Shown here one piece after another: positions 26,085-62,015 of a stretch of 64,000 bases of DNA. Numbering within the stretch: position 1 is the stretch's first letter; every line of letters begins with the position of its first letter. Below the pieces are notes generated by a model that worked only from the letters and a program-made list of their open reading frames with translations, did no database searches and had not been told where the DNA came from. The position numbers were made by a program, and so were the translations under genes. The DNA is from an uncultured Actinomycetes bacterium (lineage in GTDB: Bacteria > Actinomycetota > Thermoleophilia > RBG-16-64-13). The stretch covers positions 1,440,001 through 1,504,000 of the forward strand of contig CAWJDT010000001.1 in the NCBI GenBank assembly GCA_963841735.1, written 5' to 3'.

Positions 26085-26272
26085 ATGAAGGTCCGAATTT
26101 CATGCGAAGGTTGCATAAATGTTGATACCCATGCGCCGACGGGATGATGTATTATGGAATAGCATCGATAGGAAGCTCTCCCCGCGACGTGCAGAGTGCT
26201 TCATCTACTCGTCCGTCCGCTGGTGCATCCGAACGTATGCAGTAGTAGCCACTGGTATCTGTGGAGGACATG

Positions 26273-33336: not shown

Positions 33337-33356
33337 AGGTTCTCCTCTCGCACGTG

Positions 33357-33950: not shown

Positions 33951-35251
33951 CGGGTGACTCCATGGTCGGAGGGGACGCTCGTTCGACGAGACTGGTCCAT
34001 GGTATCAACCGATGCAACGATCTCGTGGCGGAGCTTCAGTTTCAGGACACGCTCCACAGCGTCGTCCAGCCGGGCTTGATCCAGATCCCCGGACTGTACG
34101 GCCGCCGTTATGGCGTCGATCAGGGCCAGATTCTGCTCCAGCGTTCCCGTGGATATAAGTAGGTCGCAGCCTGCCTTGAGCGCGGCCACGGCGAGTCCGC
34201 CTAGGCCGGTGTTCCCTGTGGCGCTGGTGCCCTTCGCCGCAGCCATGCTCAGGTCATCGGTGATCACTATCCCCGTGAACCCCAAATCTTGGCGGAGCAG
34301 ACCATCGACTACCAGCGTCGACAACGAGGCCGGTATGTCCGGGTCGTACGCGCCGGCGATGATATGGGCCACCATGACTCCCTCGACGCCGGCAGCGATG
34401 GCGGCTTGGAACGGGGGGAGGTGGATGGTGTCGAAAGCGGTCTTGTCCGCGTCTGAGACGACGGTCTCCCCGTGGGTGTTGCCGGTGGCGCTCCCGTGTC
34501 CAGGGAAGTGTTTGATCACCGCAATCAGTCCTTGCGCCTCGAAGGCCTCGGTGACGCCCCGGACGTAGTTGGAGACAAGGGTGGGGTCACCCCCGAAGGT
34601 CCGGTCGTAGAGGAACGAGTTTCGGTCGGATACCACGTCGGCCACGGGGGCAAGGTTCATGTTCACGCCCAAGCTAAGAAGTCCAAGAGCCGTCTCGGTG
34701 GCCAGCCGCTCCGTCTCCGCCACGGTGGATTCTTCGCCCAGGGTGCGGGCGGAGGGGAGATCCGGCACGCCCTCGTGGATGCGTTGCACCGATCCACCTT
34801 CCTGGTCGACAGCGATCAGGAGACCCACCGGTAACCCACCGGTCGCCGCCGCCCCCTGGAGAGCCGCGGTCAGCGCGCGCAGCTGGTCGGTTCCGTCCAC
34901 GTTATAACCCAGAAGGAGGAGCCCGCCCGGGGGCCCAGCTTTCAGCAGAGCGGAGGTCGACTCGGTCAAGGCGGTGCCGGAGAAGCCAAGAAGGAGTACT
35001 TGGGCGGCCTTCTGGCGGAGGGTCATGCCGGCCAGAATCTCTTTAGTGGGAGAAAGCGTTGTGGTGGTGGGGGCGATGGTCGTGGGCGCAGAAGTCACGG
35101 CCGTGGTGGCGGGGGCTGCCGCCGGGCGGTCGGTAGACGAAGGAGAGCACCCGGGTCCCGACATGGTCAAGAACAGCACCACTAGCGAGGCCACAAGCGC
35201 GCCTCCTAAGAGGCGGGTCTTGGTTTGACGACGATCCACGCTCAAGAGCAT
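33947..35251 (-). CDS. Exported glycoside hydrolase family 3 (beta-N-acetylhexosaminidase, NagZ-like)
   Basis: AVDQEGG, NLAPVADV, RTFG, KHFPGHG, ITDDLSM; leader and Thr-rich linker. Confidence 0.9.
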   Translation of the reverse strand: MLLSVDRRQTKTRLLGGALVASLVVLFLTMSGPGCSPSSTDRPAAAPATTAVTSAPTTIAPTTTTLSPTKEILAGMTLRQKAAQVLLLGFSGTALTESTSALLKAGPPGGLLLLGYNVDGTDQLRALTAALQGAAATGGLPVGLLIAVDQEGGSVQRIHEGVPDLPSARTLGEESTVAETERLATETALGLLSLGVNMNLAPVADVVSDRNSFLYDRTFGGDPTLVSNYVRGVTEAFEAQGLIAVIKHFPGHGSATGNTHGETVVSDADKTAFDTIHLPPFQAAIAAGVEGVMVAHIIAGAYDPDIPASLSTLVVDGLLRQDLGFTGIVITDDLSMAAAKGTSATGNTGLGGLAVAALKAGCDLLISTGTLEQNLALIDAITAAVQSGDLDQARLDDAVERVLKLKLRHEIVASVDTMDQSRRTSVPSDHGVTR

Positions 35252-36991: not shown

Positions 36992-37792
36992 TCACGTGTA
37001 GATGTCCCTCCGCGCGAAGGCCGTCACCGCGCCTGCGGCCAGCACGCACGCGCCGGTGAGCATCAGCAGCACGGCTGTCCAGGGGAAGCCTCCCTCCAGG
37101 GGGCTGCCCAGGTGGTGGAACAGGGAGAACACTCCGGCGGGTTCCATGACCTTGGTCGCCTTGGCCAGGCTGTCGATCACGTACATGGCCACCAGTATGG
37201 CGGCAGGTACGACCGTGGCCAGCACCGCCCGTCGTGCGAGCGTTGAGATCAGCAGGCCGAGGGTGCCAAAGAGGAGACAGAATGGCCACAGCGCGGCCAG
37301 ACCGACGGCCAGATGGCCGGGGCTCAGGTCTACTCCCGCGATGGGTACGGCTATCAAGGTGATCACCCATGTGATGGCCAACACTCCGGCCAGCGAGATC
37401 GCCATGGTCACGGCCGCTCCTACTATCACTCGCCAGCGTGGCAGCGGGTTGCTGAGAAGGAGGTCAAAGGTCTTGCGCTCCTCACTCCCGGCGACCGCTC
37501 GCGTGCCTATGGCTATGGCCATAAAGGGGAGGGCCACGGGGACGATGGCGTTCATAAGCTCGAGGTCCAGCCACCGCTCGACGGTGATAGGACCCTGGAG
37601 ATCGCCCAGGAATCCCAGAAGGTAGTCGGGCGCGTTCTTCACATAGTCGTCAAGGAGGGCGCCCATGCTGGGGAAGAGGGCGACGTAGAGCGCTCCCAGA
37701 GCGCCCAGCGCACACCCCCATATGAGAAGCCCGCGCCAGCGGTTGCGCAGCTCGTGGGAGACGATGGTCCACGTCCCTTTCACGCCTGCCAT
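36992..37792 (-). CDS. ABC-2 exporter permease
   Basis: Starts MAGVKGTW at 37792; GSEERKTFDLLLSNPLPR; about six TM segments. Confidence 0.85.
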   Translation of the reverse strand: MAGVKGTWTIVSHELRNRWRGLLIWGCALGALGALYVALFPSMGALLDDYVKNAPDYLLGFLGDLQGPITVERWLDLELMNAIVPVALPFMAIAIGTRAVAGSEERKTFDLLLSNPLPRWRVIVGAAVTMAISLAGVLAITWVITLIAVPIAGVDLSPGHLAVGLAALWPFCLLFGTLGLLISTLARRAVLATVVPAAILVAMYVIDSLAKATKVMEPAGVFSLFHHLGSPLEGGFPWTAVLLMLTGACVLAAGAVTAFARRDIYT

Positions 37793-38683
37793 TGCTCCCT
37801 CTTGTCGTAGTAGCCGAGGAAGACCTCGTCCAGACTGGGATTCTCTACGCTCATGTCCACGAGGGTATGTTTTGCCGCCAGTTTGATGACCGCGTCCATG
37901 CCGTCCAAGAGCCGCAGGGATATCGTCGCCCCGCGCGCCTCGACGTCGCTCACGCCTGGTAGACCGGCGAACGGCGCCGCGTCCACAGGAGCGGCGAAGA
38001 TCATGGTGACCTGCTTGCGGCGTTTCTCCAGCAGTGAAGAGGTGGTTTCGACCGCCGCCAGTCGGCTCGCCCGCACGATACGCCACCCGGTCGCACACGC
38101 GCTCCACCTCCGACAGCACGTGGGACGACAGGAACACCGTGCGCCCTTCGTCTCTGGCCTCGCGCACGATTTGCAGGAAGTTGTCCTGCACCAGGGGGTC
38201 CAACCCGGTGGTCGGCTCATCCAGGATGAGCAGCGCGGGTCGATGGAAGAGGGCCTGTATGAGGCCGATCTTCTGCCGGTTGCCCCGGCTCAGGCGTCCC
38301 ATGGGCAGGTCTAGGTCGAGATCGAGTCGGGCCGCCAGTTGCGGTGCCACCCCCAGATCGTCCACGCCGCGCAGCCGGCCGAAGTAGGACAGCAGCTCCC
38401 GACCGGTCATGCGCGGTTCGAGTCCGAACTCCCCGGGCAGGTAGCCGACAGCACGGCGCACCGCGACGCTGTCGCGGTGCGCGTGCATCCCCAGTATGTG
38501 AGCGGATCCACTGCTGGGATGCAGAAGGTCGAGCAGAAGCCGGATGGTAGTGGTCTTGCCGGCTCCGTTGGGCCCGATGAAGCCAAATACCTCGCCCGGC
38601 CGTACTTCCAGGTCGAGGCTTTCGATGCCCGGTCGGCGGCCGTATCTCTTGGTGAGGCTCTCTGTCAGCACCGCCGGGGGCAT
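37780..38683 (-). CDS. ABC transporter ATP-binding protein (frameshift near 38085)
   Basis: GPNGAGKT, LSRGNRQK, ILDEP, SSH; C-terminus PSLDEVFL lies in ORF 37780..38220. Confidence 0.9.
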
Positions 38684-38698
38684 AGGCAGACCTTCGTC

Positions 38699-39570
38699 TC
38701 AGGTTGTTTCGTTGGGCAGCAGCGGCCGAAAGAATAGATTGTACTGGTGATCGCCGCTGGTCCACAAGGTGATCTGGGTGGCCTGCGCCAGGAGGGGCTG
38801 CAACTCGGTGAGATCGGCGCCGGAGACTACCACGGCTCTGTATCCCTCGGGCATGACCGGGGCGCCCAGAGTGCTCAGGTCGCCAAGCGGCCAGGTCAAC
38901 TCGTTCGGCTGGGACATCGCCGGGGTTCGAAGGGATGCTGGGGTCGACGGCGGCGCTGAAGACCTTCACCGCCGTGTAGGCGTACGGTTGCCACTTGATC
39001 TCGCCCGGTTCGTAGTCGGTGAGGACGCCCAACTTGCCCACCAGCTCGTTGATGGCGGCCCTGGCCTGTTGTTGTTCCATGGTGAGTCCGCCGGCGCCCA
39101 GCTCCGCGCCTAGGGCATAGATGCTGGTGCTAAAGGTCTGGCCATCGGCGCTGATCAGGACGGTGGTTGTGTTCATGTCGGTGATCCCGGGCTGGCCGTA
39201 GCCAACGCCATTTGCGAACAGACCGGCTTCTCTGGCTGCCGAGAGGATCTCCTGGATGGCGTCTTCAGAGATACGGGTGGTTTGCAGATTGGGCATGGCC
39301 GGCCCTGGATAGATCTCGATCATCGGTCCGGTGACGATGACCGTGCCATCGCCGTAGAGCGTGAACTGCGGCAAGGCAGTCAGATTGTATGAGATGGGGA
39401 CGAACCCACCTCCGGCCGAGACCTGGAGTACGATCTGGTCTTTGCCGGTGGGGTGCGGGGTCGAAGTCTCCCCCCGAACCGCCGCCACAGGCTCCGAGAG
39501 TGAGCAGGAGCGTTGTGAGCAGGACGGCCGTCGAAACGGCGCGGCCTGGTAAGGAAACTGAGCGGGACAT
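38699..39570 (-). CDS. Hypothetical lipoprotein (two frameshifts)
   Basis: Lipobox LGAC; continues LQVSAGGGFVP..PQFTLYGDG in a second frame; ends FRPLLPNETT in a third. Confidence 0.7.
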
Positions 39571-39731
39571 CGCAAAACCCCCTGTCATTGGTTACCGTCG
39601 TCGATGCGACGTTTGTCCCCCGGGACGGCGTTCCGCAACCGGCCCTGGAGCGCATCTGGCCAGCCGGACTTGAAGACCGGCGTTTCTGCCCTTAGCATAG
39701 GCAATTCACGCACCACAACACAGGGGGCATC

Positions 39732-42654: not shown

Positions 42655-44038
42655 CTAGGCGGTCGGGTCGGTGACTCGGCCCAGGAACAAGAGCGCTCCG
42701 GTCGCGGGGTCGCGCAGAGCGAAAATGAACGGGCGGTCGATCTTGAGCGGCACCACTTCCACCGGGGCGGAGGTCAACCTCATGACGACGGCTGTGGCGG
42801 CGGCAGCCTCAGTGCCCTCTTCATCCACCGCGATGTAGGCTTCGTGGATGACGTCGCTGATATACAGCCTCTCCTGGGCGGTCATGCCCGAGAAATCGGC
42901 CGTGAGGGGGTCGAAGGCGCTGGTCATTCCCAGTGCTTTGAGGATGTCATTCAGGCCGGCCTGCGTGCGGAACTCGAACTTGGGCATGGTCAGATTGACT
43001 TGAGTGCCCTCGCTTAGCCCGTCTATGGCTTCGTCGATGAGTCCGGTGGCCAGGTTGCTCTCTACCTCGGCAAAGCGCCCGCTCATCGGGGACGATCAGC
43101 AGCATGGATAGTTCATCGCGTAGATAGGGGAGTTCGATCGCCTGCCAGCCGTTTCCGGTGGCATACGGAAACGAGGACTCCTGGTTCATCATGGGGGCGG
43201 TGACCTTCTGGCCGGCCAGAGTGGTGAACTGCCTGTCGGTCGTCAATCGGGGATCGAACTGGTTGGCCCAGGTGGCGTCCAGGTAGACGGCGTTTACCAG
43301 CACCAGCCGGGTGAGGGAGTCGAGCGTGCCCTCGGGGATGAGTTCCGGGATCTTGTCGTTGGTCTCACCGGCCACCCACTGGTTGATGGCTTTGCGGGCG
43401 GCCTCGGCGGCGGTCTTGTAGTCCACCAGGCGGACGCCGGCGCCGTAGTTGGCGGCCAGAGTGTCGAGGAAGAGCTGCTCGAAGACCAGGTCTTTCTGGG
43501 CCCAGAGGCTGTTGGCGGTCTTGACGAGCACGCCCTCATCGGCGCCCTCTGCGTTCTTGCCCTGCCAGCTCCTTGATTCGAGGGCGACGTCGAGGGAGTT
43601 GAAGGCTTGGTGCAGCGCGTCGCCGGCAAGGGTGAAGTGGAGTGTGGCCGCCATCTCGTCGGCGGTGGTCCCGGCAGCTCCCGCGTAGGTCATGGCTAGG
43701 GCCGTGACGACGCTGGCGGGTGAGAAGACGAGGTTTGCCGTTCGCCGACCTGGCCCGCGAGTACGCCGTACATGTCGGCGCCGAAGTTCTGGAGGCTTTG
43801 CGCCGCGGCTTCCACGTCGGTCTGCGAGGCCGAAGCCGCGAGACGAGATAGCGTCGGACATGGCCAGGAAGGTGCCGTCGGGCGCGGCCCCTACTGTGGA
43901 CGCGGTGGTGTCGGCGCCGCCCCCGCTCCCGCCGCCGCCAGGCTCACCGCCGCAGGAGACGGCGACCAAAGGAAGCGCCGCCAGCGACAGAGCGATGGCG
44001 AGCGTGATGGCGCGTGAGCGACGACTGGCGGTCTTCAT
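42655..44038 (-). CDS. Serpin, lipoprotein-anchored (frameshifted)
   Basis: Lipobox VAVSC; NLVFSPAS, AGAAGTT, INQWV..T...I, LVNAVY, MPKF, hinge DEEGTEAAAAT, DRPF. Confidence 0.92.
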
Positions 44039-44058
44039 GTTGCCCCCTATCGATGCCC

Positions 44059-45214
44059 CTATCCGTGACTCAGCTTGGACACCTTCGCAGACAGGACGGT
44101 TCCGGGCGCTAAGCTTCCTCTGGTGAAAGCCAGGCGGGCGCCTACGCGGCCGCACCCGCCGGGTCTCAGACGGCAGGTGCTGGAGTCGAACCGAGCTCCG
44201 CCGGTTCCGAGCCCATCCATGAACATTCCGAATGGACCTGGATTCTCCGTGATGGCCTTCTGTAGTTCGGTGAAAGGCAAGGGCGAGTCTGGAGCTTCGA
44301 TCGCAAGGGGCTGGTTGATGCTGTCGAGCCACATGCTTCCGCTGATATCGATGCCCAGAAGGCCGTCAGGGTCTTCTCCGGGCGGAGGGGAGACGTGGGC
44401 CGCGACCGCCATCTTCCGCACCTGAGAGTCATCGCAGCCCACCCAGAGGTCGATCGTGAGGCCCTGCAGCATGCTTTCTAACTGGGCCATGACCTCTTCG
44501 AATTCGGCCGGGGATGGCGCGAAGCCCGGGCTCATTTGGGAAGCCAGGGTCCCCGTGGGGTCGACGAGGCTAAGGAACTTCTTGTTCTGCATGAGTGCGA
44601 AAACGTCGACGAACATCTTCCTGAGGTCGGGAGAGCCGGCCATATGAACGGTTTTGACCCCGGCCAAGTCTTCCTCGCCGACTACGCTGAGGTCTTGGAA
44701 CCAGGTCACAGGATCGAACTCCAAATCAGTGAGCAGTTGCTCCATCTCCTTGGGGTCGACTGGAGCGGTCGAGCCTGCGAACATCTGCATGGCCTCGGAG
44801 GGCATCTCGTACCAACTGTCGGCGTAGCTCAGCCAGAAGCCGCTCTCTCGGAATCTCATGCCCATTTCCATGGGCAGTCCCTGCCAGGTCGAGCGAAACG
44901 GTGTACTCAGCAGCCATGGGGTCATCCGTATAGGCGAAGGTGCCGGAGACTGCCATCCCGTCAAGCAGCAGTTGCGCGATCTGCATGCCTTCCGCCGGGA
45001 TCTGGGACTCGTCGGCGTCGAACGTCAGCCCCAAGTCGAAGCCGCCGCTGGCAGCGGTCATGTTGTATGAGGCAGATAAGGCTGCTGCGAGGATGTCTTC
45101 GGGGGAGTCGCTGACTCTCGTGGCACGGCTGGAGGTGGTGCCGCAGGCGGCCGCGCTCAGGATAAGCGCAAAGGCAACAAGGACGGTGATGATGAGGGAA
45201 AGCCTGCTGCGCAT
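44059..45214 (-). CDS. Lipoprotein with LppX/LolA-like beta-rich domain (frameshift near 44875; 3' end uncertain)
   Basis: Lipobox AAAC; VVGEEDLAGVKTVH, DLWVG..D..VRK, IEAP pattern; paralogous to the C-terminus of the next gene. Confidence 0.65.
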
Positions 45215-48075: not shown

Positions 48076-48123
48076 TGCCCGATGTTAGCACTCCACTGGA
48101 TTATCATGGTCTTTGCAGGCCGT

Positions 48124-48160
48124 GCCAGCCAGCCAGCCAGCCAGACAGCCAGACAGACAG
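48124..48160 (+). repeat. Tetranucleotide simple sequence repeat
   Basis: (GCCA)5-GACA-GCCA-GACA-GACA-G, nine G(C/A)CA units between pepP and the radical SAM gene. Confidence 0.85.
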
Positions 48161-48169
48161 GGGACCCAC

Positions 48170-49330
48170 GTGCGCCAGCTTGATAGATCTATTGGGATGT
48201 TCTTTCTGAGGAGTCTGCGGGTGAGCCTCGCCAGACCGAGTCAGGCCCTGCAGTTCGCGCGCGTCCTGTGTTGGCAGGCTGGGGCCGCCAAGGTCAGGGC
48301 CGCTTGGCTTAGGCGCGGGGTGACCGTGCCGCCCATCATCATCTTCAGCATCACCCGGCAGTGCAATCTGAACTGCACCGGGTGTTACGCCTTCGCGCTG
48401 CCTCGGGCGGGTGAAGACGCCCCTTCCGGCCCGGCGGGGCATGAGGAACTGAGTGCCGCTAAGCTCGAGAGCATAGTGGCCGAGGCCGTCGAGCTAGGTG
48501 TCTCCTTCTTCGTGATCGCCGGGGGCGAACCCCTCATGCGCTCTGAGATGCTCGACATCGCTGGGCGCTTTCCGCGCGTCACGTTCCTTGTGTTCACAAA
48601 CGGCTTGCTTCTCGACGAGGTCATGGCGGCCAGACTAGCCCGGCTGAGGAACGTGGTCTGCCTCATCAGTCTCGAAGGAAACGCCGCGGAGACCGACGGC
48701 AGGCGGGGAGCGGGTACCCACGAACGGCTGATGCGAGCGATGTCGCTGCTTCAGGGCCGGCATCTCTTTTTTGGCTGCTCTGTGACTCTCACCCGCTCCA
48801 ATCTCGACACTGTGCTCGGTGACGACTTCATCCGGGGCCTGACCAAGGTCGGATGCCATCTATTCCTTCTTCCCGAGTACACCCCGGTGGACGAGACTAC
48901 CGACGACTGGGCGCTCTCCGAACCACAGCGCGAGCAGGTGGTCTCCCGCCTGCGCGGACTCCGCCGGCGTCACCGCGCGGCGGTGGTCGTGGCCGTGCCC
49001 TGGGACGAAGAGCTGGTGGGGGGGTGCCTGGCGGCGGGCCGGGGCTTCGTGCACGTCAACGCCCGTGGCGACGTAGAGCCATGCCCGTTTGCGCCCTACT
49101 CGGATGTAAATCTAAAGGGGTCGGCTCTGGTCGAAGCGCTGCGCTCGCCGTTTTTGGCCGGCCTTCGGGCCATGCCGGAAGCTTCTTCGGAGGCCGGCGG
49201 AGGATGCGCGCTTTGGAAGAACCGGGCGCAGGTGGAGGAGGTTCTCGGCGGTATACTTGATGGCGGCGGTGCGTACCTGCGCACAGAGTTGAAAGTGCCA
49301 ACAAGCCCGGAAGGAGAACCGAATGGCTAG
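48170..49330 (+). CDS. Radical SAM protein with C-terminal SPASM/twitch-like domain (start uncertain: 48113, 48170 or 48197)
   Basis: CNLNCTGC, AGGEP, FTNG, ISLEG, GGCLAAG..H....GDVEPCPF. Confidence 0.9.
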   Translation: MRQLDRSIGMFFLRSLRVSLARPSQALQFARVLCWQAGAAKVRAAWLRRGVTVPPIIIFSITRQCNLNCTGCYAFALPRAGEDAPSGPAGHEELSAAKLESIVAEAVELGVSFFVIAGGEPLMRSEMLDIAGRFPRVTFLVFTNGLLLDEVMAARLARLRNVVCLISLEGNAAETDGRRGAGTHERLMRAMSLLQGRHLFFGCSVTLTRSNLDTVLGDDFIRGLTKVGCHLFLLPEYTPVDETTDDWALSEPQREQVVSRLRGLRRRHRAAVVVAVPWDEELVGGCLAAGRGFVHVNARGDVEPCPFAPYSDVNLKGSALVEALRSPFLAGLRAMPEASSEAGGGCALWKNRAQVEEVLGGILDGGGAYLRTELKVPTSPEGEPNG

Positions 49331-50151: not shown

Positions 50152-50275
50152 GCGCGCCAACATACGATAGGAATTTTCTTCAGGCGCAGCGCCGAGCTCC
50201 CCGATCTCCCCGCTCAGTCTCCAGTCTCTCCCTTTCGTTTGTGGGTTAGGTAACCTTTTGTTCTTGGAGGCTGCA

Positions 50276-50644
50276 GTGAGTTCTTCAAAACTGTACGTGG
50301 GCAACCTCAGCTACAGCACCACCGAAGCGAGCATCCGGGCTCTCTTTGAGGCCCAGGGCTCTGTGGTGTCAGTGAATCTCATCACCGACCGCGACTCGGG
50401 CCGTGCCAAAGGCTTTGGGTTCGTGGAGATGGGGTCGCCCGAGGAAGCTCAGAAGGCGAAGGATGCCCTCGACGGCACTGACCTCGACGGCCGCTCACTC
50501 AAGGTTGACACTGCCAAAGAGCAGGCGCCGCGTGCGCCGCGTTCCGGCGGCTACGGCGGTGGCGGCGGCTACGGCGGTGGCGGCGGCGGCTACGGTGGTG
50601 GTGGCGGTCGCGGCGGCTACAGCGGCGGCGGCAATCGCTGGTAG
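50276..50644 (+). CDS. RRM RNA-binding protein with Gly/Tyr-rich tail
   Basis: LYVGNL, KGFGFVEM, GGYGGGG repeats; GGAGG SD before GTG 50276. Confidence 0.95.
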   Translation: MSSSKLYVGNLSYSTTEASIRALFEAQGSVVSVNLITDRDSGRAKGFGFVEMGSPEEAQKAKDALDGTDLDGRSLKVDTAKEQAPRAPRSGGYGGGGGYGGGGGGYGGGGGRGGYSGGGNRW

Positions 50645-50848: not shown

Positions 50849-53064
50849 ATGGATAGCGATTTGGACAGCAGTGCTCTCGTGGCTCCAGTGCCCGAACTCC
50901 CCCGCGAGGACTATCCGGTGGAGTGGTGGTTCTTCCAGGGCGGGTTCACCAGGCCGGGTGGAGCCCAATACGAGTACATGGTCTCGTTCTTCCGCATCAC
51001 GGTATCGCGGGCGCATGAGCCGCAGCAAAACGGTCACAGCCTTCTAGTCACGCTGCTTGAGGTCGCGACCGGCAAGAACTACACGCTCAGCCGGGTGGAC
51101 GATCTCGTTGTGAGCGGCATGGTCAGACGCGTCGAGCTTCTGGACGACATCGGAGATCGACAGAGAACTGCAGCAAGTGCTCTACAGAGAGATCGAGAGG
51201 CACGGTCCTCCCCGGCCGATCAAGCTGGGCAAGGCTCCTGTGGAGATGCTCCAAGACCGGCTCAAGGTCTCTTGGGACGACTTTGCGCTTGAGCAGGTCG
51301 GCAGCACCTTCTTTGTCGACTTCGCCGTTCCCGACTGGGAGCTGCAGGTCTCTCTGTGTTTGGAGCCGGAATACCCGCGCATGCTCGTGCAAAGAGAAGA
51401 CGAGCCCGACTCTCTCACCGGGGGGCTTATGCTGGCCAGCTATCCGCGCATGGCCGTTAGCGGCCGAGTGAACGGGGAGGAGCTGGGAGGTACAGGCTGG
51501 TTTGACCACCAGTGGGGCGATTTCGGCTGGTTCGTCACCGGTCCTTTGACAAAGGACTACGTGGGTTGGGACTGGTTCGGCATCAACCTCGACGATGGCA
51601 CCGACATCATCATCTCAGCAGTCAAGCAGATGCGGGCGGATCGGGAGCTCAGGTCCCGGGCCTTCGTGCGTTCGCCCAGCGGGGACACGGCGGAGTATGA
51701 GGAACTACAGATCACCCCGCTTAGGTACTGGGAGAGCCCTCGCAGCCACACCCGCTACCCCATCGAGTGGCGTATCCAGATACCCGCGCTCGACTTGGAC
51801 GCCGTCTACAGGCCGCTCATAGACGACCAGGAGATAGCTCTGCTGGGGGTCGCGCGGGCGGTCTGGGAGGGGGCCGGAAGGCTTGCGGGCACCATGGGCG
51901 GCCGGGACATTTCGGGCCGCGCGAGAGGCGAGTTCTACGGATACGGGTACATCTTCGACTTCCAGGACTTCATCCAGCGGCTGGTGGACAAGGTGGACAA
52001 GCACCTGGATGAGTTTCTTCCCCGGCGATTCGACGAAGCCGACGTGGCCAAGTTCGTCGGTGAGCCCCATTGGCGGCACGAACCCGAGGCCTATACCGAA
52101 CTGCTGGCCACTCCCGTCTGGGACCTTATCTCGCGCAAGGGCAAGAGGTGGAGGCCGGTCTTCGGTATCCTCATGGGCGAGGCGCTTGGGGCCGCGACGG
52201 AGCACTACGAGAAGTCCACCTGTCTGGCGGAGTTTGTCCACTCGGGCGCTCTGATCATCGACGACATCCAGGATGATTCGCTGCTCCGCCGTGGGGAGCC
52301 GTGCATCCATCTCAAGTACGGGGTCGATGTGGCCATCAGCGCCGGCAACACCCTGTACTTTCTCCCCTCCATCGACCTGCTCCACCACCCGCACCTGGAC
52401 GATCTTCAGAAGCTGCGTGTCCACGAGATCATGATGGACACATACCTGCAGGCGCACTTCGGGCAGACCGTGGACATCTACTACTCGAAGTACCTGACCC
52501 GGGAGAACCTGGAATCGTGGCTTGAGGGGCCGCTAGAGGACAAGATCCTGCAGCTTTACGATTTCAAGACCGCCGCGATGCCTCGCGGGCTGGCGCAGAC
52601 CGCCGCGCTGGTGGCCAGGGCGGATGCTGAACGTGACCCAGGCGTGTGTCGACTTCTCCCGAGCGTTTGCCGTGTCCTTCCAGATCATCGACGACGTGCA
52701 CAACTTCAGCGACTCGCCCGAGTGGCGGAAGGTCCGCGGGGAGGACCTGGCCGGCGGCAAGTTGACCTACGCTATCGTCCGGGCGATCCGCCTGCTGGAG
52801 AATGCCGACGGGGGTGACGGCGCGAGACGGGATCGGTTGGTCGAGATCCTGTGCTCCCCCGAACTGCGCAAAGACCCGCGGGTGCTCCAAGAGGGCATCG
52901 CTTTGGTGAGGGAGTCAGGTGCGCTCGAAGAGTGTCGGGAGACGGCCAGGCAGATGAGCATGGAGGCCAACGAGCGCTTCGGCGACGCTATCCCCAGCTG
53001 CGAGCCCAAGATCATGCTCAGCATGCTCTGCGTCAAGATGCTCGACCTGGCCTTCGACACTTAG
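50849..53064 (+). CDS. CrtC/AttH lipocalin-like domain fused to a trans-polyprenyl diphosphate synthase (frameshifts near 51160 and 52625)
   Basis: EWWFFQG, GWFDHQWG, WDWFGINLDDG, W.SP.S..RYP..W, DQE, WEG; then GKRWRP, DDIQD..LRRG, GQ..D, KT, FQIIDDVHN, EDL..GK. Confidence 0.85.
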
Positions 53065-53087: not shown

Positions 53088-53900
53088 ATGTCTCTTCAAG
53101 GTTTCAGCGTACCTCTGTCTCCGGAAGGCCGGGCCGCTCTCACGCCTGTGCCTCCCTGGCATTACGCCGGCGACCTGCTGCTGGTCGACTTCGCCGCCGA
53201 TCCCGCCGCCGTCGAGGCGGTGCTGCCCCGCGGTCTGGAGCTCGACCCCGCCGATCCCGGCGGGTGCGTGGCCTTGTTCGTCGCCTGGCAGTACACCAGC
53301 GAGACCGGGGAGGAGTATCTCGACCCGGCCCGCAGCCAGTACAACGAGTTCATCCTGCTGGTGAACGCTCTCTACCGCGGCGAAGCTGTCTGCACCTGCC
53401 CCTACATCTACGTGGACAAAGACAACGCCATGGCCCGCGGTTGGATCCAGGGCTGGCCCAAGAAGGGCGGCGAGATCCACACCACCCGGGCCTTCCCGCT
53501 GGCGGCCAAGGCTGCTCCTCGGGTGGAGCCGGGCGGCCGCTTCGGTGGCACTCTTTCGGTCAACGGCCGGCGTATCGCCGAGGCGGTAGTGGAGTTGGAG
53601 AAGGTCTCCGCCGATCCGGTGTACTTCGGTAAGCGCCCGGCGGTCAATCTGCGCTACTTCCCACAGCTGGCCGGAGCCGGCAAGGCGAAACCGCCCGTGT
53701 GTGAGTTGGTGAGGTCGCTACTGGGCGGGGCTCAGCGCACGGAAATATGGGAAGGGGCGGCTGATCTCAGATTCTTCGCCTCTCCCGACAACGAGCTCGA
53801 CGCCTTCCGGCCGGTCGCGGTGCGCCGCGGTTATCGCTACAGCATGACCATGACCATCGCCGACCTAGAGGTGCTGGAGGAGCTAAAGAGGGTCGGGTAG
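53088..53900 (+). CDS. Acetoacetate decarboxylase-fold protein (ADC/MppR-like)
   Basis: PPWHY, QYNE, YIYVD, GWIQGWPKK (Schiff-base Lys position); AGGAGG SD, 23 nt after the upstream stop. Confidence 0.85.
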   Translation: MSLQGFSVPLSPEGRAALTPVPPWHYAGDLLLVDFAADPAAVEAVLPRGLELDPADPGGCVALFVAWQYTSETGEEYLDPARSQYNEFILLVNALYRGEAVCTCPYIYVDKDNAMARGWIQGWPKKGGEIHTTRAFPLAAKAAPRVEPGGRFGGTLSVNGRRIAEAVVELEKVSADPVYFGKRPAVNLRYFPQLAGAGKAKPPVCELVRSLLGGAQRTEIWEGAADLRFFASPDNELDAFRPVAVRRGYRYSMTMTIADLEVLEELKRVG

Positions 53901-54078
53901 GGAGGCCTGGGTCTGCCCTGGTTGGCGTAGGTGGAGCTCGACGCCGGCTTCCGTAGTAACCGTTAGGTAGAGAGTAAGACAGTCCGGGATGTGGTTGGGG
54001 CCGGCAGGTGGTCTCGAGGCTGCTGGGGCGGTCTATACTAGGAATGGATTTCCTCAGGCGAAAGGCGGATGGCAACAC

Positions 54079-55131
54079 ATGCAGCGCATGATCCTTGGCA
54101 GGACCAATCTGGATGTCTGCCGTCTTGGGTTCGGAGGCATCCCGATCCAGAGGCTGAGCGAAGCGGAAGCGGTGGAGACCGTCGGCCATGCACTCGCGCA
54201 GGGGATCGACTTCATCGACACCTCCCGCGGCTACAGCACCAGCGAGCGGCGCATCGGCTTGGCCTTGAAGCAGGCCGGCATGGGCGCCGACGGCCGCGAC
54301 AGCGCCGGCGGCCGCTCCGTGGTGCTCGCCTCCAAGTCCCAATCCAAGACTGCGGACAAGATGCGGGCCGACCTGGAGACCAGCCTTGAGGAACTCCAGC
54401 GGCACTACATCGACATCTACAAATGCCACTTCGTGGCCAACCTCGCCGACTACCAGACGGTGACGTCTCCCGGGGGCGCGCTTGAGGCCCTGAGCAAGGC
54501 CAAGGACGAGGGCCTGATAGGTCACATCGGCATCACCAGTCACAGCCTGGACGTGCTTGATCGGGCTCTCGACGACGAACTTTTCGACGTCATCATGGTC
54601 TGCTTCAGCTTTCTCGAACCCAAGGCCAAGGAAGAGATCATCCCGAAAGCGCACCAGAAGAACGTCGGCGTGCTCGCCATGAAGCCGTTTTCCGGCGGAG
54701 TGATCGAAGACGCCCGGCTGGCCCTGAAGTACGCTCTCTCGGAGCCCGGAGTCCTGGTGCTCGCCGGAGTGGAGCATACGGATCTGCTGGACGAGAACTG
54801 GAGGGTGTTCCAGGAAGGCGCGTCGCTCACCGAGGGCGAGCAGCGGGAGATCGCCGCGCTGCAGCAGAGCTACGACAAGGTGTTCTGCCGCCGCTGTAAC
54901 TACTGCCAGCCCTGCTCGGAAGGCATCGCCATCCAGGCCGTCCTGGGCGTGCGGTCCATGATGAAACGCATGGGAAGAGACCTCTTGCTGAAGGGACGGT
55001 TCGGGGAAGACCTCGTCAAAGCCAGGAACTGCACGGAGTGCGGCGAGTGTATGACCCGCTGTCCCTACGAATTGTCCATCCCCGACCTTATCAGGGAGAA
55101 CCTGCGTTGGGTGGACGAGCAGGCGGAGTGA
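54079..55131 (+). CDS. Aldo/keto reductase with C-terminal 4Fe-4S domain
   Basis: LGFGGIPIQR, IDTSRGY, GITSH, MKPFSGG, CRRCNYCQPC, CTECGECMTRCP. Confidence 0.92.
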   Translation: MQRMILGRTNLDVCRLGFGGIPIQRLSEAEAVETVGHALAQGIDFIDTSRGYSTSERRIGLALKQAGMGADGRDSAGGRSVVLASKSQSKTADKMRADLETSLEELQRHYIDIYKCHFVANLADYQTVTSPGGALEALSKAKDEGLIGHIGITSHSLDVLDRALDDELFDVIMVCFSFLEPKAKEEIIPKAHQKNVGVLAMKPFSGGVIEDARLALKYALSEPGVLVLAGVEHTDLLDENWRVFQEGASLTEGEQREIAALQQSYDKVFCRRCNYCQPCSEGIAIQAVLGVRSMMKRMGRDLLLKGRFGEDLVKARNCTECGECMTRCPYELSIPDLIRENLRWVDEQAE

Positions 55132-60015: not shown

Positions 60016-61181
60016 ATGAGCACGTTCAGGAACATCTTTCGCAGAAAGCTTCGTGCCTTTCTCACCATCTTCGGCATCACCATCGGGGTGTTCGCGCTGG
60101 TGGTCATGGGCGGGATGGCCGAGAAGATCAACCTCATGATCAGTGGCGGCACCCAGTACTACAGCGACAAGGTCTTGGTCGAAGACGCCTCCAACATGAC
60201 CGGCAGTCTCAGCAGCACCCCGGTCTCGGTGGACCGCATCGGCGACATCGAGGCCGTGGCCGGCGTGGCCCGGGCTTCGGCCGGCATCTGGATGACCCTC
60301 GACCCGGACGCGGGCATGAGCATGGCGATGCCCCAAGGCCATCACGGGCAGCGATGGGCGCGAGATCGGCTACGAGACCTTTCCCCTCAAGATGGCTGAA
60401 GGCCGCGACCTGAACGGGCGACGACCGGGGCAAGGCCGTGTTGGGCTGCGATGTCGCCAAGGCCATGGGGGCCGGGGTGGGCAAGACCGTCGAGATCCGT
60501 GGACGGCAGTTCGAAGTGGTCGGCATCTATGACAAGACCCTGACCGCTCCCGACAGCACGGTCACGGTCACGCTGGCAGACGCGCAGGAGATGTTCTTCG
60601 CTCAACTGCCGGCCATGATCCAGACCCAGATCCGGCCTGAGCAGTTGGCCACTCAGATCACCGTGTACCCGGAGCCCGGCATAGACGCCGACCAGCTGGC
60701 TTCGACCATCCAGGACGCGGTGGCCGGCGTGAAGGCAACCGGTCCGCAGGCTTTCATCGACATGTTCAAGAGCGCGACCAAGATCTTCAACGGCATCATC
60801 TTCGGAGTGGCCCTCATCTCTCTCTTCGTTGGCGGCCTCTCGGTGGTCAACACCATGACCATGTCGGTGTACGAGCGCACCCGCGAGATCGGCATCCGCA
60901 AGGCCATCGGCGCCTCGCACCGGCAGATCGTGGGGCAGTTCCTGGGCGAGTCGGCCCTCATCGGGTTCCTAGGCGGAGCGACCGGCCTTGTGCTGGGGTG
61001 GGTCACCACCCTGGCGGTGAATGCAGTCACGAGCGGCAGCGGCACGGTGCTCTTCCTGGTCACCCCGCGCCTGGCGATCGGCTCGTTGGTCTTCGCGGTG
61101 GTGCTCGGAGTGGGCAGTGGCTTCTATCCCTCGCTGCACGCGGCCCGGCTGAAGCCGGTCATGGCCCTGCGCTACGAGTGA
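60016..61181 (+). CDS. MacB/FtsX-type ABC permease (frameshifts near 60335 and 60415)
   Basis: RKLRAFLTIFGITIGV, NTMTMSVYERTREIGIRKAIGA, QFLGES, P..HAARLKPV.ALRYE. Confidence 0.9.
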
Positions 61182-61267
61182 GGCGCACGGCAATGCATGC
61201 CAAAGAAACAGCACAAGACTTTGAGAGATTCGGATCGACCAAAGACTCGACTGAAGGGATGGCGACG

Positions 61268-62015
61268 ATGAAAAGCATGGTGAGCGCAACCGGACTGGCC
61301 AAGCGCTATGAGTTGGGCAAAGAGAACTACGTGGATGCCCTGCAGGGGCGTGGCGGTGGATATCAAAGCGGGCGAGATGGTGGCCATCATGGGGCCATCG
61401 GGATGCGGCAAGTCCACACTGCTGCACGTGCTCGGCTGCCTGGACAACGCCGATGCGGGCGAGATCTGGCTGAACGGGCGCAGGATCGACGACATGGGCG
61501 CCGGCGCCATCACCAAGCTGCTGCGCGACGAGATCGGCTTCATCTTCCAGGGATTCAACCTGGTGCAAGGCATGACGGCCCTGGAGAACGTGGCCCTGGC
61601 CGCCGAGTACGCGGGCAAGAAGCGGCGTGAAGCTCAGAATGCCGCCCGCGAGGCCCTGGAGCGCGTGGGGCTGGGCGACCGCGTGGACCACCGGCCCAAC
61701 GAGCTCTCGGGCGGCCAGCAGCAACGGGTGGCCATCGCCCGGGCGCTGGTGAACGATCCGCTGGTGATCTTCGGCGACGAGCCCACCGGCAACCTCGACA
61801 GTGCCAGCTCGGCCGAAGTCATCGACATGATGCGCGAGATCAACCTGACCACGGGGCGGACCTTCATCCTGGTGACGCACGATGCCGGCGTGGCCGAGGC
61901 CTGCGACCGGGTGATCCACATGCGCGACGGCCTGGTGATCGGAGACGAGACGGACGTACCGGACTGGGAGATGGTCGCCAGCCTCGCCGGGACGGCCGAG
62001 CCGGTCGCCGCGTAG
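61268..62015 (+). CDS. LolD/MacB-type ABC ATP-binding protein (frameshift near 61343; start approximate)
   Basis: GPSGCGKST, FIFQ.FNL, LSGGQQQR, DEPTGNLD, VTHD. Confidence 0.92.

What the first reader, a model, noticed from the sequence alone, without database searches (positions are those of the whole stretch)
50849..53064. Chimeric isoprenoid enzyme: CrtC/AttH lipocalin-like domain fused to a type III GGPPS-like prenyltransferase
Seen: the CrtC/AttH motifs (GWFDHQWG, WDWF.INLDDG, DQE, WEG) run into the prenyltransferase motifs (GKRWRP, DDIQDDSLLRRG, GQ..D, KT) inside one uninterrupted ORF (51177..52817), so the fusion is not created by the two flanking indels. The second Asp-rich motif is FQIIDDVHN (DDxxN), and the residues at -5/-4 before the first motif are small (G, A). 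Known: DDxxN is typical of eukaryote-like type III GGPP synthases; small residues there allow C20 or longer products; CrtC/AttH-fold enzymes include carotenoid 1,2-hydratase and kievitone hydratase, which act on prenyl double bonds; fungal chimeric terpene synthases use a similar N-terminal modifier plus C-terminal prenyltransferase layout. Inference: one enzyme that builds a polyprenyl chain and then hydrates or cyclises it. There is no crtB/crtI in the window, so a carotenoid role is not supported locally. I do not know of a characterised enzyme with this architecture.
Basis: partly seen in the sequence, partly recalled or inferred. Interest (0 to 1): 0.85.

Follow-up and report, generated by a model that had tools for sequence, protein, structure and literature searches.

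The report
AttH-barrel fused to prenyl diphosphate synthase
This gene encodes a two-part enzyme, a lipid-binding barrel of the AttH/carotenoid-hydratase type joined to an isoprenoid chain-building enzyme, that occurs in hundreds of bacterial species but has never been studied, so it could reveal a new way of making or handling isoprenoid lipids.

Summary
Window 50849-53064 (+) encodes one ~738-codon gene read in three frames. The middle ORF alone carries CrtC-N, Lipocalin_9 and polyprenyl_synt domains, so the indels do not create the fusion.

Each frame break is one extra base relative to an intact same-genus orthologue. All three segments have dN/dS 0.12-0.15 and no stops. A serpin, a MacB-like permease and a ValRS-like gene in the same assembly are also frame-broken, so assembly error is the likelier cause.

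The architecture is widespread:
- All 120 listed database homologues carry Lipocalin_9 plus polyprenyl_synt.
- At least 573 species genomes encode a relative.

No paper or solved structure describing it was found. The prenyltransferase has every catalytic motif. The barrel keeps every residue invariant in AttH-like proteins, and several are shared with kievitone hydratase. The genome has no phytoene/squalene synthase, so a carotenoid role is unlikely.

In 6 of 16 closest loci a MacB-type ABC or MMPL lipid exporter lies within 1.5 kb. The likeliest function is an enzyme that builds a chain of C20 or longer, which the barrel then hydrates, processes or hands off. This is inferred, not shown. It is a new variant of known bifunctional prenyltransferases.

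The parts
50849..51149 (+). Segment 1 of the gene (first frame): start codon, no signal peptide, EWWFF motif, first strands of barrel 1 and the start of the helical insertion
   Evidence: 100 codons, 76% aa identity to the G009 orthologue, dN/dS 0.15, no stop.
51148..51152 (+). Frame break 1: one extra base relative to the intact orthologue
   Evidence: nucleotide alignment with G009. Homologues read ...LLDDTEIDRE... across this point.
51150..52626 (+). Segment 2 (second frame): rest of the AttH/CrtC-type double barrel, conserved junction, first two thirds of the prenyltransferase
   Evidence: CrtC, Lipocalin_9, polyprenyl_synt in one ORF; 492 codons, 80.5% identity, dN/dS 0.12, no stop.
51504..51515 (+). 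DHQW motif. Asp and His are invariant in fusions and in stand-alone AttH-like proteins. It corresponds by motif to the H-x-W of CrtC.
   Evidence: CrtC residues from PMC4717167.
51564..51578 (+). GWDWF motif. Both Trp are invariant family-wide. The Asp is not conserved in the distant clade.
51822..51833 (+). DDQE motif. Gln-Glu is invariant, also in AttH 2ICH and kievitone hydratase.
51864..51872 (+). WEG motif (invariant Trp-Glu-Gly)
52260..52295 (+). First Asp-rich motif DDIQD followed by SLLRRG. Small residues (G, A) at -5/-4.
52625..52629 (+). Frame break 2: one extra base relative to the intact orthologue
   Evidence: Homologues read ...LVA(K/R)VD..V.QVCVDF... across it.
52627..53064 (+). 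Segment 3 (third frame): last third of the prenyltransferase, with the second Asp-rich motif DDVHN (52690-52704), GEDLAGGKLTY and the stop codon
   Evidence: 145 codons, 81% identity, dN/dS 0.12, no stop.
60016..62015 (+). Possible partner, weakly linked: MacB-like/FtsX permease (itself frame-broken, 60016-60399 and 60438-61181) and ABC ATPase (61308-62015), 7 kb downstream
   Evidence: The same gene pair lies within 1.5 kb of the fusion in L003, L009, L010 and L013.

Best explanation
Shown: the locus is one gene of about 738 codons. It belongs to a widespread, uncharacterised bacterial family of cytoplasmic two-domain proteins. An N-terminal AttH/CrtC-type double beta-barrel, with a family-specific helical insertion, is joined through a conserved junction to a C-terminal trans-isoprenyl diphosphate synthase that has all catalytic motifs.

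Inferred: the synthase condenses IPP onto an allylic diphosphate to give a chain of C20 or longer (small residues at -5/-4, DDxxN second motif). The hydrophobic omega-end of that product enters the cavity of the fused barrel. There the invariant Asp-His, Gln-Glu and Trp-Glu-Gly residues and the ring of invariant tryptophans protonate the terminal double bond. Water then adds (hydration), or the cation is quenched by ring closure, as in kievitone hydratase and CrtC. The resulting isoprenoid lipid is, in many relatives, passed on to MacB-type ABC, MMPL or LolA-like export proteins.

The two frame breaks in this copy are most likely assembly errors, so the organism probably makes the full-length protein.

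The confidence of 0.4 is for the whole statement, including the inferred hydration or cyclisation step. That the locus is a genuine member of this fusion family with a catalytically complete synthase I hold at about 0.9.
For: - Domains in one ORF.
- Intact homologues of 727-748 aa: all 120 listed carry Lipocalin_9 plus polyprenyl_synt, and 116 of them also CrtC-N.
- In 16 close and 53 distant family members the prenyltransferase residues K443, R446, D482, D483, D486, R491, R492, Q550, D553, K584 and D626 are invariant, and N629 is present in 63 of 69. Barrel residues E36, W37, W38, W228, D230, W251, W305 (52 of 53 distant), S307, E339, W350 and E372 are invariant or nearly so.
- The same barrel residues are invariant in an alignment of 4 fusions with 7 stand-alone AttH-like proteins.
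- D-x-Q-W-G, W-x-W-F, D-Q-E and (W/Y)-E-G line up with kievitone hydratase 7a0q and AttH 2ich.
- AF2 model: pLDDT 87.4, pTM 0.88. The N-domain matches 2ich (TMt 0.76) and kievitone hydratase 7a0t (TMt 0.71). The C-domain matches GGPPS 1wy0 (TMt 0.88).
- Domains folded as separate chains gave weak support: score 0.41, best of 3 controls 0.00. The mark was reached by 58 of 80 solved complexes and 2 of 110 mismatched pairs, but at 0.60 or under by only 7 of those 80 and by both mismatches that passed. Runs agree in at least 78% of contacts, and partner pLDDT is at least 83.
- CrtC hydrates terminal prenyl units of many non-carotenoid terpenes by Asp protonation with Trp stabilisation (PMC12402844 passages; PMC4717167 abstract and passages).
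- No SQS_PSY, no PcrB, and no geranylgeranyl reductase hit over the cut-off in the genome. No carotenoid, squalene or GGGP route was therefore found, and the only isoprenoid sources seen are the two trans-prenyltransferases. cis-Prenyltransferases were not searched.
- dN/dS 0.12-0.15 in all three segments.
- Other frame-broken genes in the assembly, including a ValRS-like gene.
Against: - No biochemical data exist for any member.
- I found no conserved counterpart of CrtC's essential Tyr266/Asp268. The stretch between the HQW and WDW motifs is 17 variable residues, and no CrtC sequence was available to align.
- D252 of GWDW is Asn in 44 of 53 distant members.
- The invariant barrel residues are the same in secreted or lipoprotein AttH relatives. 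Those cannot meet a cytosolic prenyl diphosphate, so the site is not tailored to this substrate.
- Neighbourhoods (MacB/ABC, MMPL, MlaC, LolA-like) and the known AttH-ABC association (PMC2954199 section 3.4) fit a carrier or hand-off role equally well.
- Most loci show no informative neighbour.
- The inter-domain prediction is only weak support.
- Chain length is unknown.
- The frame breaks could be real: no reads could be examined, and only 2 of 16 genomes of the genus carry the gene.
Confidence: 0.4

Rival explanations
1. Built-in lipid carrier. The barrel is not catalytic. It sequesters the growing or finished polyprenyl chain, speeds product release from the synthase, and hands the lipid to the membrane or to MacB-type ABC, MMPL, MlaC or LolA-like trafficking proteins.
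For: - The lipocalin-like fold is a ligand-binding fold (PMC2954199).
- Stand-alone AttH sits in operons with a lipoprotein-exporter-type ABC ATPase and a large permease.
- DUF2006 homologues are associated with LolD-like ABC transporters.
- 6 of 16 close loci have MacB/FtsX or MMPL within 1.5 kb, and L013 has MlaC too. 4 distant loci have LolA-like next door. The Streptomyces canus plasmid copy is divergent from an ABC pair.
- Small -5/-4 residues, as in long-chain synthases. From memory, such synthases need a carrier or detergent for turnover.
Against: - A passive carrier would not be expected to keep an invariant Asp-His, Gln-Glu, Trp-Glu-Gly and Ser across clades at about 25% identity.
- Part of that set is shared with a proven hydratase.
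- MacB-type exporters act on the periplasmic side, whereas the fusion has no signal peptide.
- 10 of 80 loci show such neighbours within 6 kb, and 70 do not.
Confidence: 0.3
2. The barrel performs another reaction on the product, for example removal of the diphosphate to give a polyprenyl phosphate or alcohol. That product would serve as a dedicated carrier lipid or membrane lipid.
For: - JGI names the domain 'predicted secreted hydrolase'.
- In 9 distant-clade loci a gene for a multi-pass membrane protein lies within 6 kb (within 200 bases in 8 of them). Its model best matches GT-C glycosyltransferases (PglB, STT3, AftA, Pmt4; E from 3e-4, TM about 0.35), and it has an ADDH motif after the first helix. 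GT-C enzymes use polyprenyl-phosphate sugars (recalled).
- UDP-glycosyltransferases are neighbours in 3 loci.
Against: - No known phosphatase motif or metal site was seen.
- All characterised relatives of the fold are hydratases.
- Known bacterial carrier lipids come from cis-prenyltransferases (recalled).
- The GT-C match has low TM-scores and concerns only the distant clade.
Confidence: 0.12
3. In this genome the gene is a recently inactivated pseudogene. The two extra bases are real and no full-length protein is made.
For: - There are two independent frame breaks in one gene.
- Neither lies in a long homopolymer.
- The gene is accessory: among the genomes searched it was found in 2 of 16 of the genus and in none of the 25 other genomes of the family and class.
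- rpoC, an IleRS-like gene, an aldehyde dehydrogenase and an 874-aa gene are intact in the same assembly.
Against: - There is no stop or other lesion in any of the three segments, and dN/dS is 0.12-0.15.
- At least three other genes with Pfam continuity across a frame change occur in the same assembly. Two are in this 64-kb window, and a ValRS-like gene that should be essential lies on contig C3.
- Genome completeness is 89.7% in only 8 contigs.
Confidence: 0.25
4. A carotenoid enzyme: a GGPP synthase (CrtE-like) fused to a genuine CrtC that hydrates lycopene-type carotenoids.
For: - There is a Pfam CrtC hit.
- Automatic names such as 'carotenoid 1,2-hydratase' are given to stand-alone relatives.
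Against: - No SQS_PSY (phytoene/squalene synthase) hit in the genome at 89.7% completeness.
- No crt genes among the 169 neighbours scanned by Pfam.
- The CrtE equivalog scores 57.8 bits against a cut-off of 460.
- The barrel is AttH-like, not CrtC-like.
Confidence: 0.03

Closest known systems
NE1406, putative AttH of Nitrosomonas europaea (PDB 2ICH; Pfam CrtC/Lipocalin_9, formerly DUF2006)
   Same: - Two orthogonally packed lipocalin-like barrels.
- phmmer E 6e-23 and Foldseek E 8.5e-19, TMt 0.76.
- Shared EWW, WxD(H/R)(Q/E)W, GWDW, NLDDG, DDQE and WEG motifs.
- Association with MacB/LolD-type ABC transporters in part of the loci.
   Different: - AttH-like proteins are stand-alone, about 350 aa, with a signal peptide or lipobox, and of unknown function.
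- Here the domain is cytoplasmic, carries a helical insertion of about 40-50 residues and is covalently joined to a prenyltransferase.
Kievitone hydratase of Nectria haematococca (PDB 7A0Q/7A0T)
   Same: - Same double-barrel fold (Foldseek E 5e-12, TMt 0.71).
- Motifs D-x-Q-W-G, W-x-W-F, D-Q-E and (W/Y)-E-G align.
- It hydrates the double bond of a prenyl group (recalled).
   Different: - 14% identity.
- It is a secreted fungal enzyme acting on a prenylated isoflavonoid.
- It has no prenyltransferase domain.
- I found no open paper on its catalytic residues.
Carotenoid 1,2-hydratase CrtC (Rubrivivax gelatinosus, Thiocapsa roseopersicina)
   Same: - Same Pfam family.
- Cofactor-independent hydration of a terminal isoprene unit.
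- Essential His-x-Trp and Trp-x-Trp motifs (PMC4717167, PMC12402844) have look-alikes here (HQW, WDW).
- It accepts non-carotenoid terpenes.
   Different: - No conserved counterpart of Tyr266/Asp268 was seen.
- The spacing between the HxW and WxW motifs is 17 residues here, against about 41 in CrtC numbering.
- No carotenoid pathway was found in this genome.
- I could not align a real CrtC sequence.
Stand-alone trans-isoprenyl diphosphate synthases: GGPPS of Pyrococcus horikoshii (1WY0), plant solanesyl diphosphate synthases (9K9C, 9JR6)
   Same: - All catalytic motifs are shared.
- TMt 0.88 to 1wy0.
- E 1e-36 to 1e-34 with the family profile.
- The -5/-4 residues are small, as in solanesyl synthase (A, S), and unlike 1wy0 (Y, S).
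   Different: - The second motif is DDxxN instead of DDxxD.
- About 12-16 extra residues lie between GQxxD and KT.
- There is an N-terminal barrel domain.
- No NCBIfam equivalog cut-off is reached.
Fungal bifunctional prenyltransferase-cyclases (variediene synthase 9E2H, copalyl diphosphate synthase PvCPS 8V0F/9Q3I, 7WIJ)
   Same: - One polypeptide with an N-terminal product-modifying domain and a C-terminal GGPPS-type prenyltransferase (positions).
- PvCPS pairs the prenyltransferase with a protonation-dependent (class II) cyclase (recalled), the closest mechanistic analogy.
   Different: - There the modifying domain is an alpha-helical class I or beta-gamma class II terpene cyclase. Here it is an all-beta double lipocalin.
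- These enzymes are eukaryotic, whereas this family is bacterial.

Membership tests
trans-isoprenyl diphosphate synthase (Pfam polyprenyl_synt PF00348) | Profile match above the curated cut-off | tested here: met
   107.1 bits (cut-off 27) in ORF2 and 32.6 bits in ORF3.
trans-isoprenyl diphosphate synthase (Pfam polyprenyl_synt PF00348) | First Asp-rich motif DDxxD with the following RRG; GKxxRP; GQxxD; KT; second Asp-rich motif; GK.T | tested here: met
   All are present in the window. They are invariant in 69 family members, except that the last residue of the second motif is Asn in 63 of 69.
trans-isoprenyl diphosphate synthase (Pfam polyprenyl_synt PF00348) | All-helical isoprenoid synthase fold | tested here: met
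   Model of orthologue P0003: TMt 0.88, rmsd 2.7 A to 1wy0.
trans-isoprenyl diphosphate synthase (Pfam polyprenyl_synt PF00348) | Condensation of IPP with an allylic diphosphate; product chain length | not testable with these tools
   Needs an enzyme assay.
Type III (eukaryote-like) GGPP synthase | Second motif DDxxN and small residues at -4/-5 (definition recalled, not from a call) | tested here: met
   DDVHN, and G, A at -5/-4.
Type III (eukaryote-like) GGPP synthase | Closest relatives are yeast or human GGPPS; C20 product | tested here: not met
   The best PDB matches are archaeal GGPPS 1wy0 and solanesyl synthases. Yeast 2dh4 and human 2q80 rank lower. GGPPS equivalogs score 49-80 bits against cut-offs of 460-500. 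The product is unknown.
AttH / CrtC-type double lipocalin (PF07143 + PF17186) | Both Pfam profiles above their cut-offs | tested here: met
   CrtC 25.7 bits (cut-off 22.5) and Lipocalin_9 90.5 bits (cut-off 26.2).
AttH / CrtC-type double lipocalin (PF07143 + PF17186) | Two-barrel AttH-like fold | tested here: met
   Foldseek 2ich E 8.5e-19, TMt 0.76-0.78.
AttH / CrtC-type double lipocalin (PF07143 + PF17186) | Family-invariant residues (EWW, W.DH, W.W, W.S, QE, WEG, E372) | tested here: met
   25 invariant columns are shared by 4 fusions and 7 stand-alone proteins.
AttH / CrtC-type double lipocalin (PF07143 + PF17186) | Secreted or lipoprotein, with an N-terminal signal sequence | tested here: not met
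   The N-terminus MDSDLDSSALVAPVPELPRED... has no hydrophobic segment. Stand-alone relatives P0125, P0129 and P0185 have one.
Carotenoid 1,2-hydratase CrtC proper | Essential His239-x-Trp241 and Trp283-x-Trp285 (PMC4717167, PMC12402844) | tested here: inconclusive
   HQW and WDW motifs are present and conserved in the close clade. Equivalence rests on motif order only, because no CrtC sequence was aligned.
Carotenoid 1,2-hydratase CrtC proper | Essential Tyr266 and catalytic Asp268 | tested here: inconclusive
   No conserved Tyr-x-Asp between HQW and WDW. Other invariant acids exist (D230, E339, E351).
Carotenoid 1,2-hydratase CrtC proper | Acts in a carotenoid pathway (phytoene synthase and desaturase present) | tested here: not met
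   No SQS_PSY hit in the genome, which is 89.7% complete. No crt neighbours.
Fungal chimeric prenyltransferase-terpene synthase | N-terminal alpha-helical class I (DDxxD/NSE) or beta-gamma class II cyclase domain | tested here: not met
   The N-domain is all-beta and matches only AttH and kievitone hydratase.
Fungal chimeric prenyltransferase-terpene synthase | C-terminal GGPPS-type prenyltransferase in the same chain | tested here: met

The most novel reading that the evidence does not exclude
The family is a new class of self-contained bacterial terpenoid synthase. An all-beta AttH-type barrel, not a helical terpene cyclase, carries out protonation-initiated chemistry (hydration or ring closure) on the far end of the polyprenyl diphosphate made by the fused synthase. 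This would give the first enzymatic function for the large AttH/DUF2006 family. It would also define a new isoprenoid envelope lipid that dedicated MacB, MMPL or LolA-like systems export.
Probability: 0.3. Interest if true: 0.8.

Novelty: new variant of a known kind. Interest (0 to 1): 0.6.

Why it matters
Bifunctional prenyltransferase fusions have so far been studied mainly in fungi, where the partner is a helical terpene cyclase. Here the partner is an AttH/CrtC-type double barrel. That fold has only two proven activities, both hydration of a prenyl double bond, and its large bacterial AttH branch has no known function.

The fusion physically ties that domain to a defined substrate source. 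This turns the open question 'what does AttH do?' into a simple in vitro experiment: IPP plus an allylic primer, full-length enzyme against the single domains. Cultured hosts and a Streptomyces plasmid copy are available for this.

If the barrel is catalytic, this is a new route to omega-hydroxylated or cyclised polyprenyl compounds, and a cofactor-free hydratase of biocatalytic interest. If it is a carrier, it would be a built-in product-release and hand-off device for long-chain prenyl synthases, linked to envelope lipid export.

Tried and rejected
Reads. The look-up of sequencing runs listed no run for the 2216-base stretch (none was listed, which is not the same as none exists). Read laying was therefore not used, and the two extra bases could not be checked against reads.

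Larger fused forms. A 'longer' search (1310-3740 aa) found none (weak evidence). The 1506-aa ORF in L066 was not followed up and may be an upstream ORF extension.

Split forms. The two best 'shorter' hits (P0121 of 389 aa, P0122 of 408 aa) end just after the conserved GYGY(I/L)FD junction. They look like truncated fusions, not true stand-alone genes.

Local context in the window. The radical SAM/SPASM-type gene (48113-49330), the Zn-ribbon/DUF4440 membrane protein, the RRM protein, the MppR-like ADC-family gene (53088-53900) and the aldo-keto reductase with a 4Fe-4S domain (53989-55131) give no isoprenoid link. Only the reductase is shared with the G009 locus. The radical SAM genes near the two copies are not orthologous.

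Carotenoid role. Rejected.

Programmed frameshifting. Rejected. It would need two +1 events at non-conserved sites that are absent from all intact homologues.

CrtC residue mapping. I could not obtain a genuine CrtC sequence to align, so the mapping of CrtC catalytic residues is by motif only.

Literature. Searches found no paper on the fusion. One search (7A0Q) found nothing, and one search found only a review listing. Supplementary files of PMC4717167 and PMC12402844 (alignments, docking figures) were not seen and could bear on the residue mapping.


Full report
WHAT IS IN THE SEQUENCE

Window 50849-53064 (+) holds three overlapping ORFs in three frames: 50849-51292, 51177-52817 and 52624-53064.

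Pfam finds all three domains in the middle ORF alone:
- the second half of the CrtC N-terminal lipocalin domain (25.7 bits, cut-off 22.5);
- Lipocalin_9 (E 1.3e-25);
- positions 2-166 of polyprenyl_synt (E 1.1e-30).

The first ORF supplies the start of the CrtC domain and the third the rest of polyprenyl_synt. The fusion is therefore real and does not depend on how the frame breaks are read.

THE FRAME BREAKS

An intact orthologue of 748 aa (P0003, 80% identical) lies in another genome of the same genus (G009). Aligned with it, the window has exactly one extra base at about 51148-51152 and one at about 52625-52629.

Read in their own frames, the three segments (100, 492 and 145 codons) have no stop. 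They are 76-81% identical to the orthologue, with dN/dS of 0.15, 0.12 and 0.12. The gene was therefore under purifying selection for essentially all of its divergence.

The same assembly has other genes whose Pfam profile continues across a frame change:
- a serpin (profile 20-230 in 42947-44332, profile 232-370 in 42655-43086, minus strand);
- a MacB-like permease (60016-60399 and 60438-61181);
- on contig C3, a class I aminoacyl-tRNA synthetase with ValRS-like motifs, spread over at least three frames.

By contrast, rpoC, an IleRS-like gene, an aldehyde dehydrogenase and an 874-aa gene are intact.

No sequencing run could be listed, so reads were not examined. I put about 0.7 on assembly error and 0.25 on a very recent pseudogene. 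Two programmed +1 shifts at sites not conserved in any homologue are not credible.

HOW COMMON THE ARCHITECTURE IS

- The protein search returned 383 hits. All 120 listed carry Lipocalin_9 and polyprenyl_synt, and 116 of them also the CrtC domain. Most are 715-760 aa.
- Sources name them 'polyprenyl synthetase family protein' or 'geranylgeranyl pyrophosphate synthase/predicted secreted hydrolase'.
- Of the 80 loci kept, 76 match from residue 36 or earlier to residue 578 or later. One starts at a contig end. Three archaeal loci match the prenyltransferase only.
- Hosts span Ignavibacteriota, Bacteroidota, Myxococcota, Planctomycetota, Verrucomicrobiota, Desulfobacterota, Alphaproteobacteria, Actinomycetota and Cyanobacteria. 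They include cultured strains: Bauldia litoralis, Desulfatitalea alkaliphila, Antarctobacter jejuensis and several Flavobacterium species.
- A 747-aa copy sits on a Streptomyces canus plasmid.
- There are two clades relative to P0003: about 33-50% identity (16 loci, which include the window's lineage) and about 24-28%.
- Among the genomes searched in the window's own genus, the gene was found in only 2 of 16. It was found in none of the 25 other genomes of the family and class, which have only a 28-32% identical stand-alone prenyltransferase. It is an accessory, probably transferred, gene.
- No larger fused form was found.
- The two best 'shorter' hits end just after the domain junction and look like truncated fusions.

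THE PRENYLTRANSFERASE HALF

Every catalytic element is present: GKRWRP, DDIQD followed by SLLRRG, GQTVD, KT, DDVHN and GK.T. Across 16 close and 53 distant members these residues are invariant, and the last residue of the second motif is Asn in 63 of 69.

The model of P0003 (pLDDT 87.4, pTM 0.88) superposes on Pyrococcus GGPPS 1wy0 (TMt 0.88), and on solanesyl, hexaprenyl and decaprenyl synthases.

The residues at -5/-4 are Gly and Ala. In the printed alignments, solanesyl synthase has Ala and Ser there, and 1wy0 has Tyr and Ser. By the classical rule (recalled), small residues there permit products of C20 or longer.

The family also has 12-16 extra residues between GQxxD and KT. No NCBIfam equivalog cut-off is approached. 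I conclude that this is an active trans-prenyl diphosphate synthase of unknown chain length. 'Type III GGPPS' is a resemblance in two features, not a membership.

THE BARREL HALF

It is much closer to AttH than to CrtC-type hydratases: phmmer E 6e-23 to 2ICH, against 2e-5 to 7A0Q. Foldseek identifies 7A0Q as kievitone hydratase (2ich TMt 0.76, 7a0t TMt 0.71).

Aligned with seven stand-alone AttH-like proteins, fusions of both clades share 25 invariant columns. These include E36-W37-W38, W228, D230-H231, W251, W253, W305, S307, Q338-E339, W350-E351-G352 and E372 (family-wide counts).

In the HMMER alignments, kievitone hydratase keeps D-x-Q-W-G, W-x-W-F, D-Q-E and Y-E-G.

For CrtC, the papers report essential His239, Trp241, Tyr266 and Asp268 (PMC4717167, abstract and passages) and Trp110, Trp283 and Trp285, with a cavity between the two barrels (PMC12402844, passages). 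The H-x-W and W-x-W motifs have look-alikes here. I saw no conserved Tyr-x-Asp in the 17 variable residues between them. I also had no CrtC sequence to align, so this point is open.

The fused domain differs from stand-alone relatives in three ways:
- It has no signal peptide, whereas the stand-alone proteins have signal or lipobox sequences.
- It has a helical insertion of about 40-50 residues (helices 96-129 in the model).
- It has a conserved junction GRARGEF.GYGYIFDF in the close clade.

The high pTM suggests a fixed arrangement of the two halves. Folding them as separate chains gave only weak support:
- score 0.41, best of 3 controls 0.00;
- the mark was reached by 58 of 80 solved complexes and 2 of 110 mismatched pairs, but at 0.60 or under by only 7 of those 80 and by both passing mismatches;
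- the runs agree in at least 78% of contacts, and partner pLDDT is at least 83.

WHAT ELSE THE ORGANISM HAS

The genome is 89.7% complete.
- It has one other prenyltransferase and no other CrtC domain.
- It has one UbiA-family gene.
- It has no SQS_PSY, no PcrB, and no geranylgeranyl reductase over the cut-off.

A carotenoid substrate for the barrel is therefore unlikely. The obvious isoprenoid at hand is the fused synthase's own product.

NEIGHBOURHOODS

No neighbour is conserved across the 80 loci, but a theme recurs.

Close clade:
- 6 of 16 loci have, within 1.5 kb, either a MacB/FtsX permease with an ABC ATPase (L003, L009, L010, L013) or an MMPL/RND protein (L007, in the same direction 40 bases upstream; L014).
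- L013 also has MlaC.
- In the window the same MacB-like/ABC pair lies 7 kb downstream.
- The Streptomyces canus plasmid copy is divergent from an ABC pair.

Distant clade:
- 4 loci have a LolA-like/DUF1329 gene next door, 3 of them with DUF1302.
- 9 have, within 6 kb (within 200 bases in 8), a multi-pass membrane protein without a Pfam match.
- 9 have an unknown protein of about 210 aa.
- 3 have UDP-glycosyltransferases.
- One has two methyltransferases.

A geranylgeranyl-reductase-like flavoprotein is near in 4 loci overall, and 12 bases upstream in Antarctobacter.

The multi-pass protein has an ADDH motif after its first helix. Its model (pLDDT 79.8) finds only GT-C glycosyltransferases at the top: PglB, STT3, AftA and Pmt4, with E from 3e-4 and low TM of about 0.35.

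Stand-alone attH in Burkholderia lies in an operon with a 'lipoprotein exporter' ABC ATPase and an 847-aa protein. The 2ICH paper notes the same association for the family (PMC2954199, section 3.4).

Caveats: ABC genes are common, L009 and L010 are related, and 70 of 80 loci show no such neighbour within 6 kb.

MOST LIKELY MECHANISM

Shown: a single cytoplasmic polypeptide with a complete prenyl diphosphate synthase and a complete AttH-type barrel.

Inferred: the synthase makes a chain of C20 or longer, whose omega-end enters the inter-barrel cavity.
- Best reading (0.4): the invariant acids and tryptophans protonate the terminal double bond and water adds, or a ring closes, as in the only two characterised relatives of the fold.
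- Nearly as likely (0.3): the barrel only binds the chain and passes it on to export machinery.
- Less likely (0.12): another reaction, such as dephosphorylation to a carrier lipid.

The closest analogy in layout and logic is the fungal prenyltransferase-cyclase fusions found among the PDB hits, but with an all-beta partner.

NOVELTY AND VERDICT

Both domain families are known, and the architecture already sits in databases under generic names. I found no paper and no solved structure that describes it. It is a new variant of a known kind, namely bifunctional prenyltransferase fusions.

Its mechanistic reading remains a reasonable but untested hypothesis, and 'type III GGPPS' is too specific. 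Interest 0.6: the fusion gives a direct experimental handle on the function of the AttH family and may define a new class of bacterial terpenoid enzyme.

Noticed in passing
window 42655-44332 (-): A serpin gene is split between two frames: Pfam profile 20-230 in 42947-44332 and 232-370 in 42655-43086. It is another frame break in this assembly. Serpins are uncommon in bacteria.
   Followed up: partly
window 60016-62015 (+): A MacB-like/FtsX permease is broken into at least two frames (60016-60399, 60438-61181) and is followed by an ABC ATPase (61308-62015). The same gene pair sits directly beside the fusion in four related loci.
   Followed up: partly
G000 contig C3, about 31936-34282 (-): A class I aminoacyl-tRNA synthetase with ValRS-like motifs is spread over at least three frames, with stops inside the profile match. 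This suggests indel errors in the assembly, since the gene should be essential.
   Followed up: partly
window 53088-53900 and 53989-55131 (+): An acetoacetate-decarboxylase-family gene scores best against the enduracididine enzyme MppR (225 bits, below the cut-off of 380). It is followed by an aldo-keto reductase fused to a 4Fe-4S dicluster domain. The reductase is also near the fusion in the G009 genome (70% aa identity).
   Followed up: partly
window 50258-50644 (+) and about 26271-26598: An RRM-type RNA-binding protein with a Gly-rich tail lies just upstream of the fusion. A second related copy seems to lie near 26.3-26.6 kb (nucleotide matches to the same G009 region).
   Followed up: no
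window 36992-38683 (-): One 563-aa ORF combines an ABC ATPase domain and an ABC-2 membrane domain. An overlapping 452-aa ORF (38217-39575) has no Pfam match. I did not check whether this is a natural fusion or another frame problem.
   Followed up: no
L022:11253-13037, L023:12215-13987, L033:10156-11970 and six further loci: A Myxococcota family of multi-pass membrane proteins of about 600 aa has no Pfam or NCBIfam match. It has an ADDH motif after the first helix and a model whose best PDB matches are GT-C glycosyltransferases. It lies within 200 bases of the distant-clade fusion in 8 loci.
   Followed up: partly
L023:9265-9912, L022:8191-8799, L025:12229-12942 and six further loci: A soluble protein family of about 210 aa with no family match is adjacent to the distant-clade fusion in 9 loci. 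Its function is unknown.
   Followed up: no
L071, L075, L076 (archaeal contigs): Stand-alone archaeal prenyltransferases (including a Woesearchaeota MAG) are 32-35% identical to the fused prenyltransferase domain. This is closer than the window genome's own housekeeping enzyme (about 30%).
   Followed up: no
L015:4169-5392 (Antarctobacter jejuensis): A geranylgeranyl-reductase-like flavoprotein ends 12 bases before the fusion gene on the same strand. Similar genes lie within 3 kb in three other loci. This hints that the product chain may be partly saturated in some hosts.
   Followed up: partly
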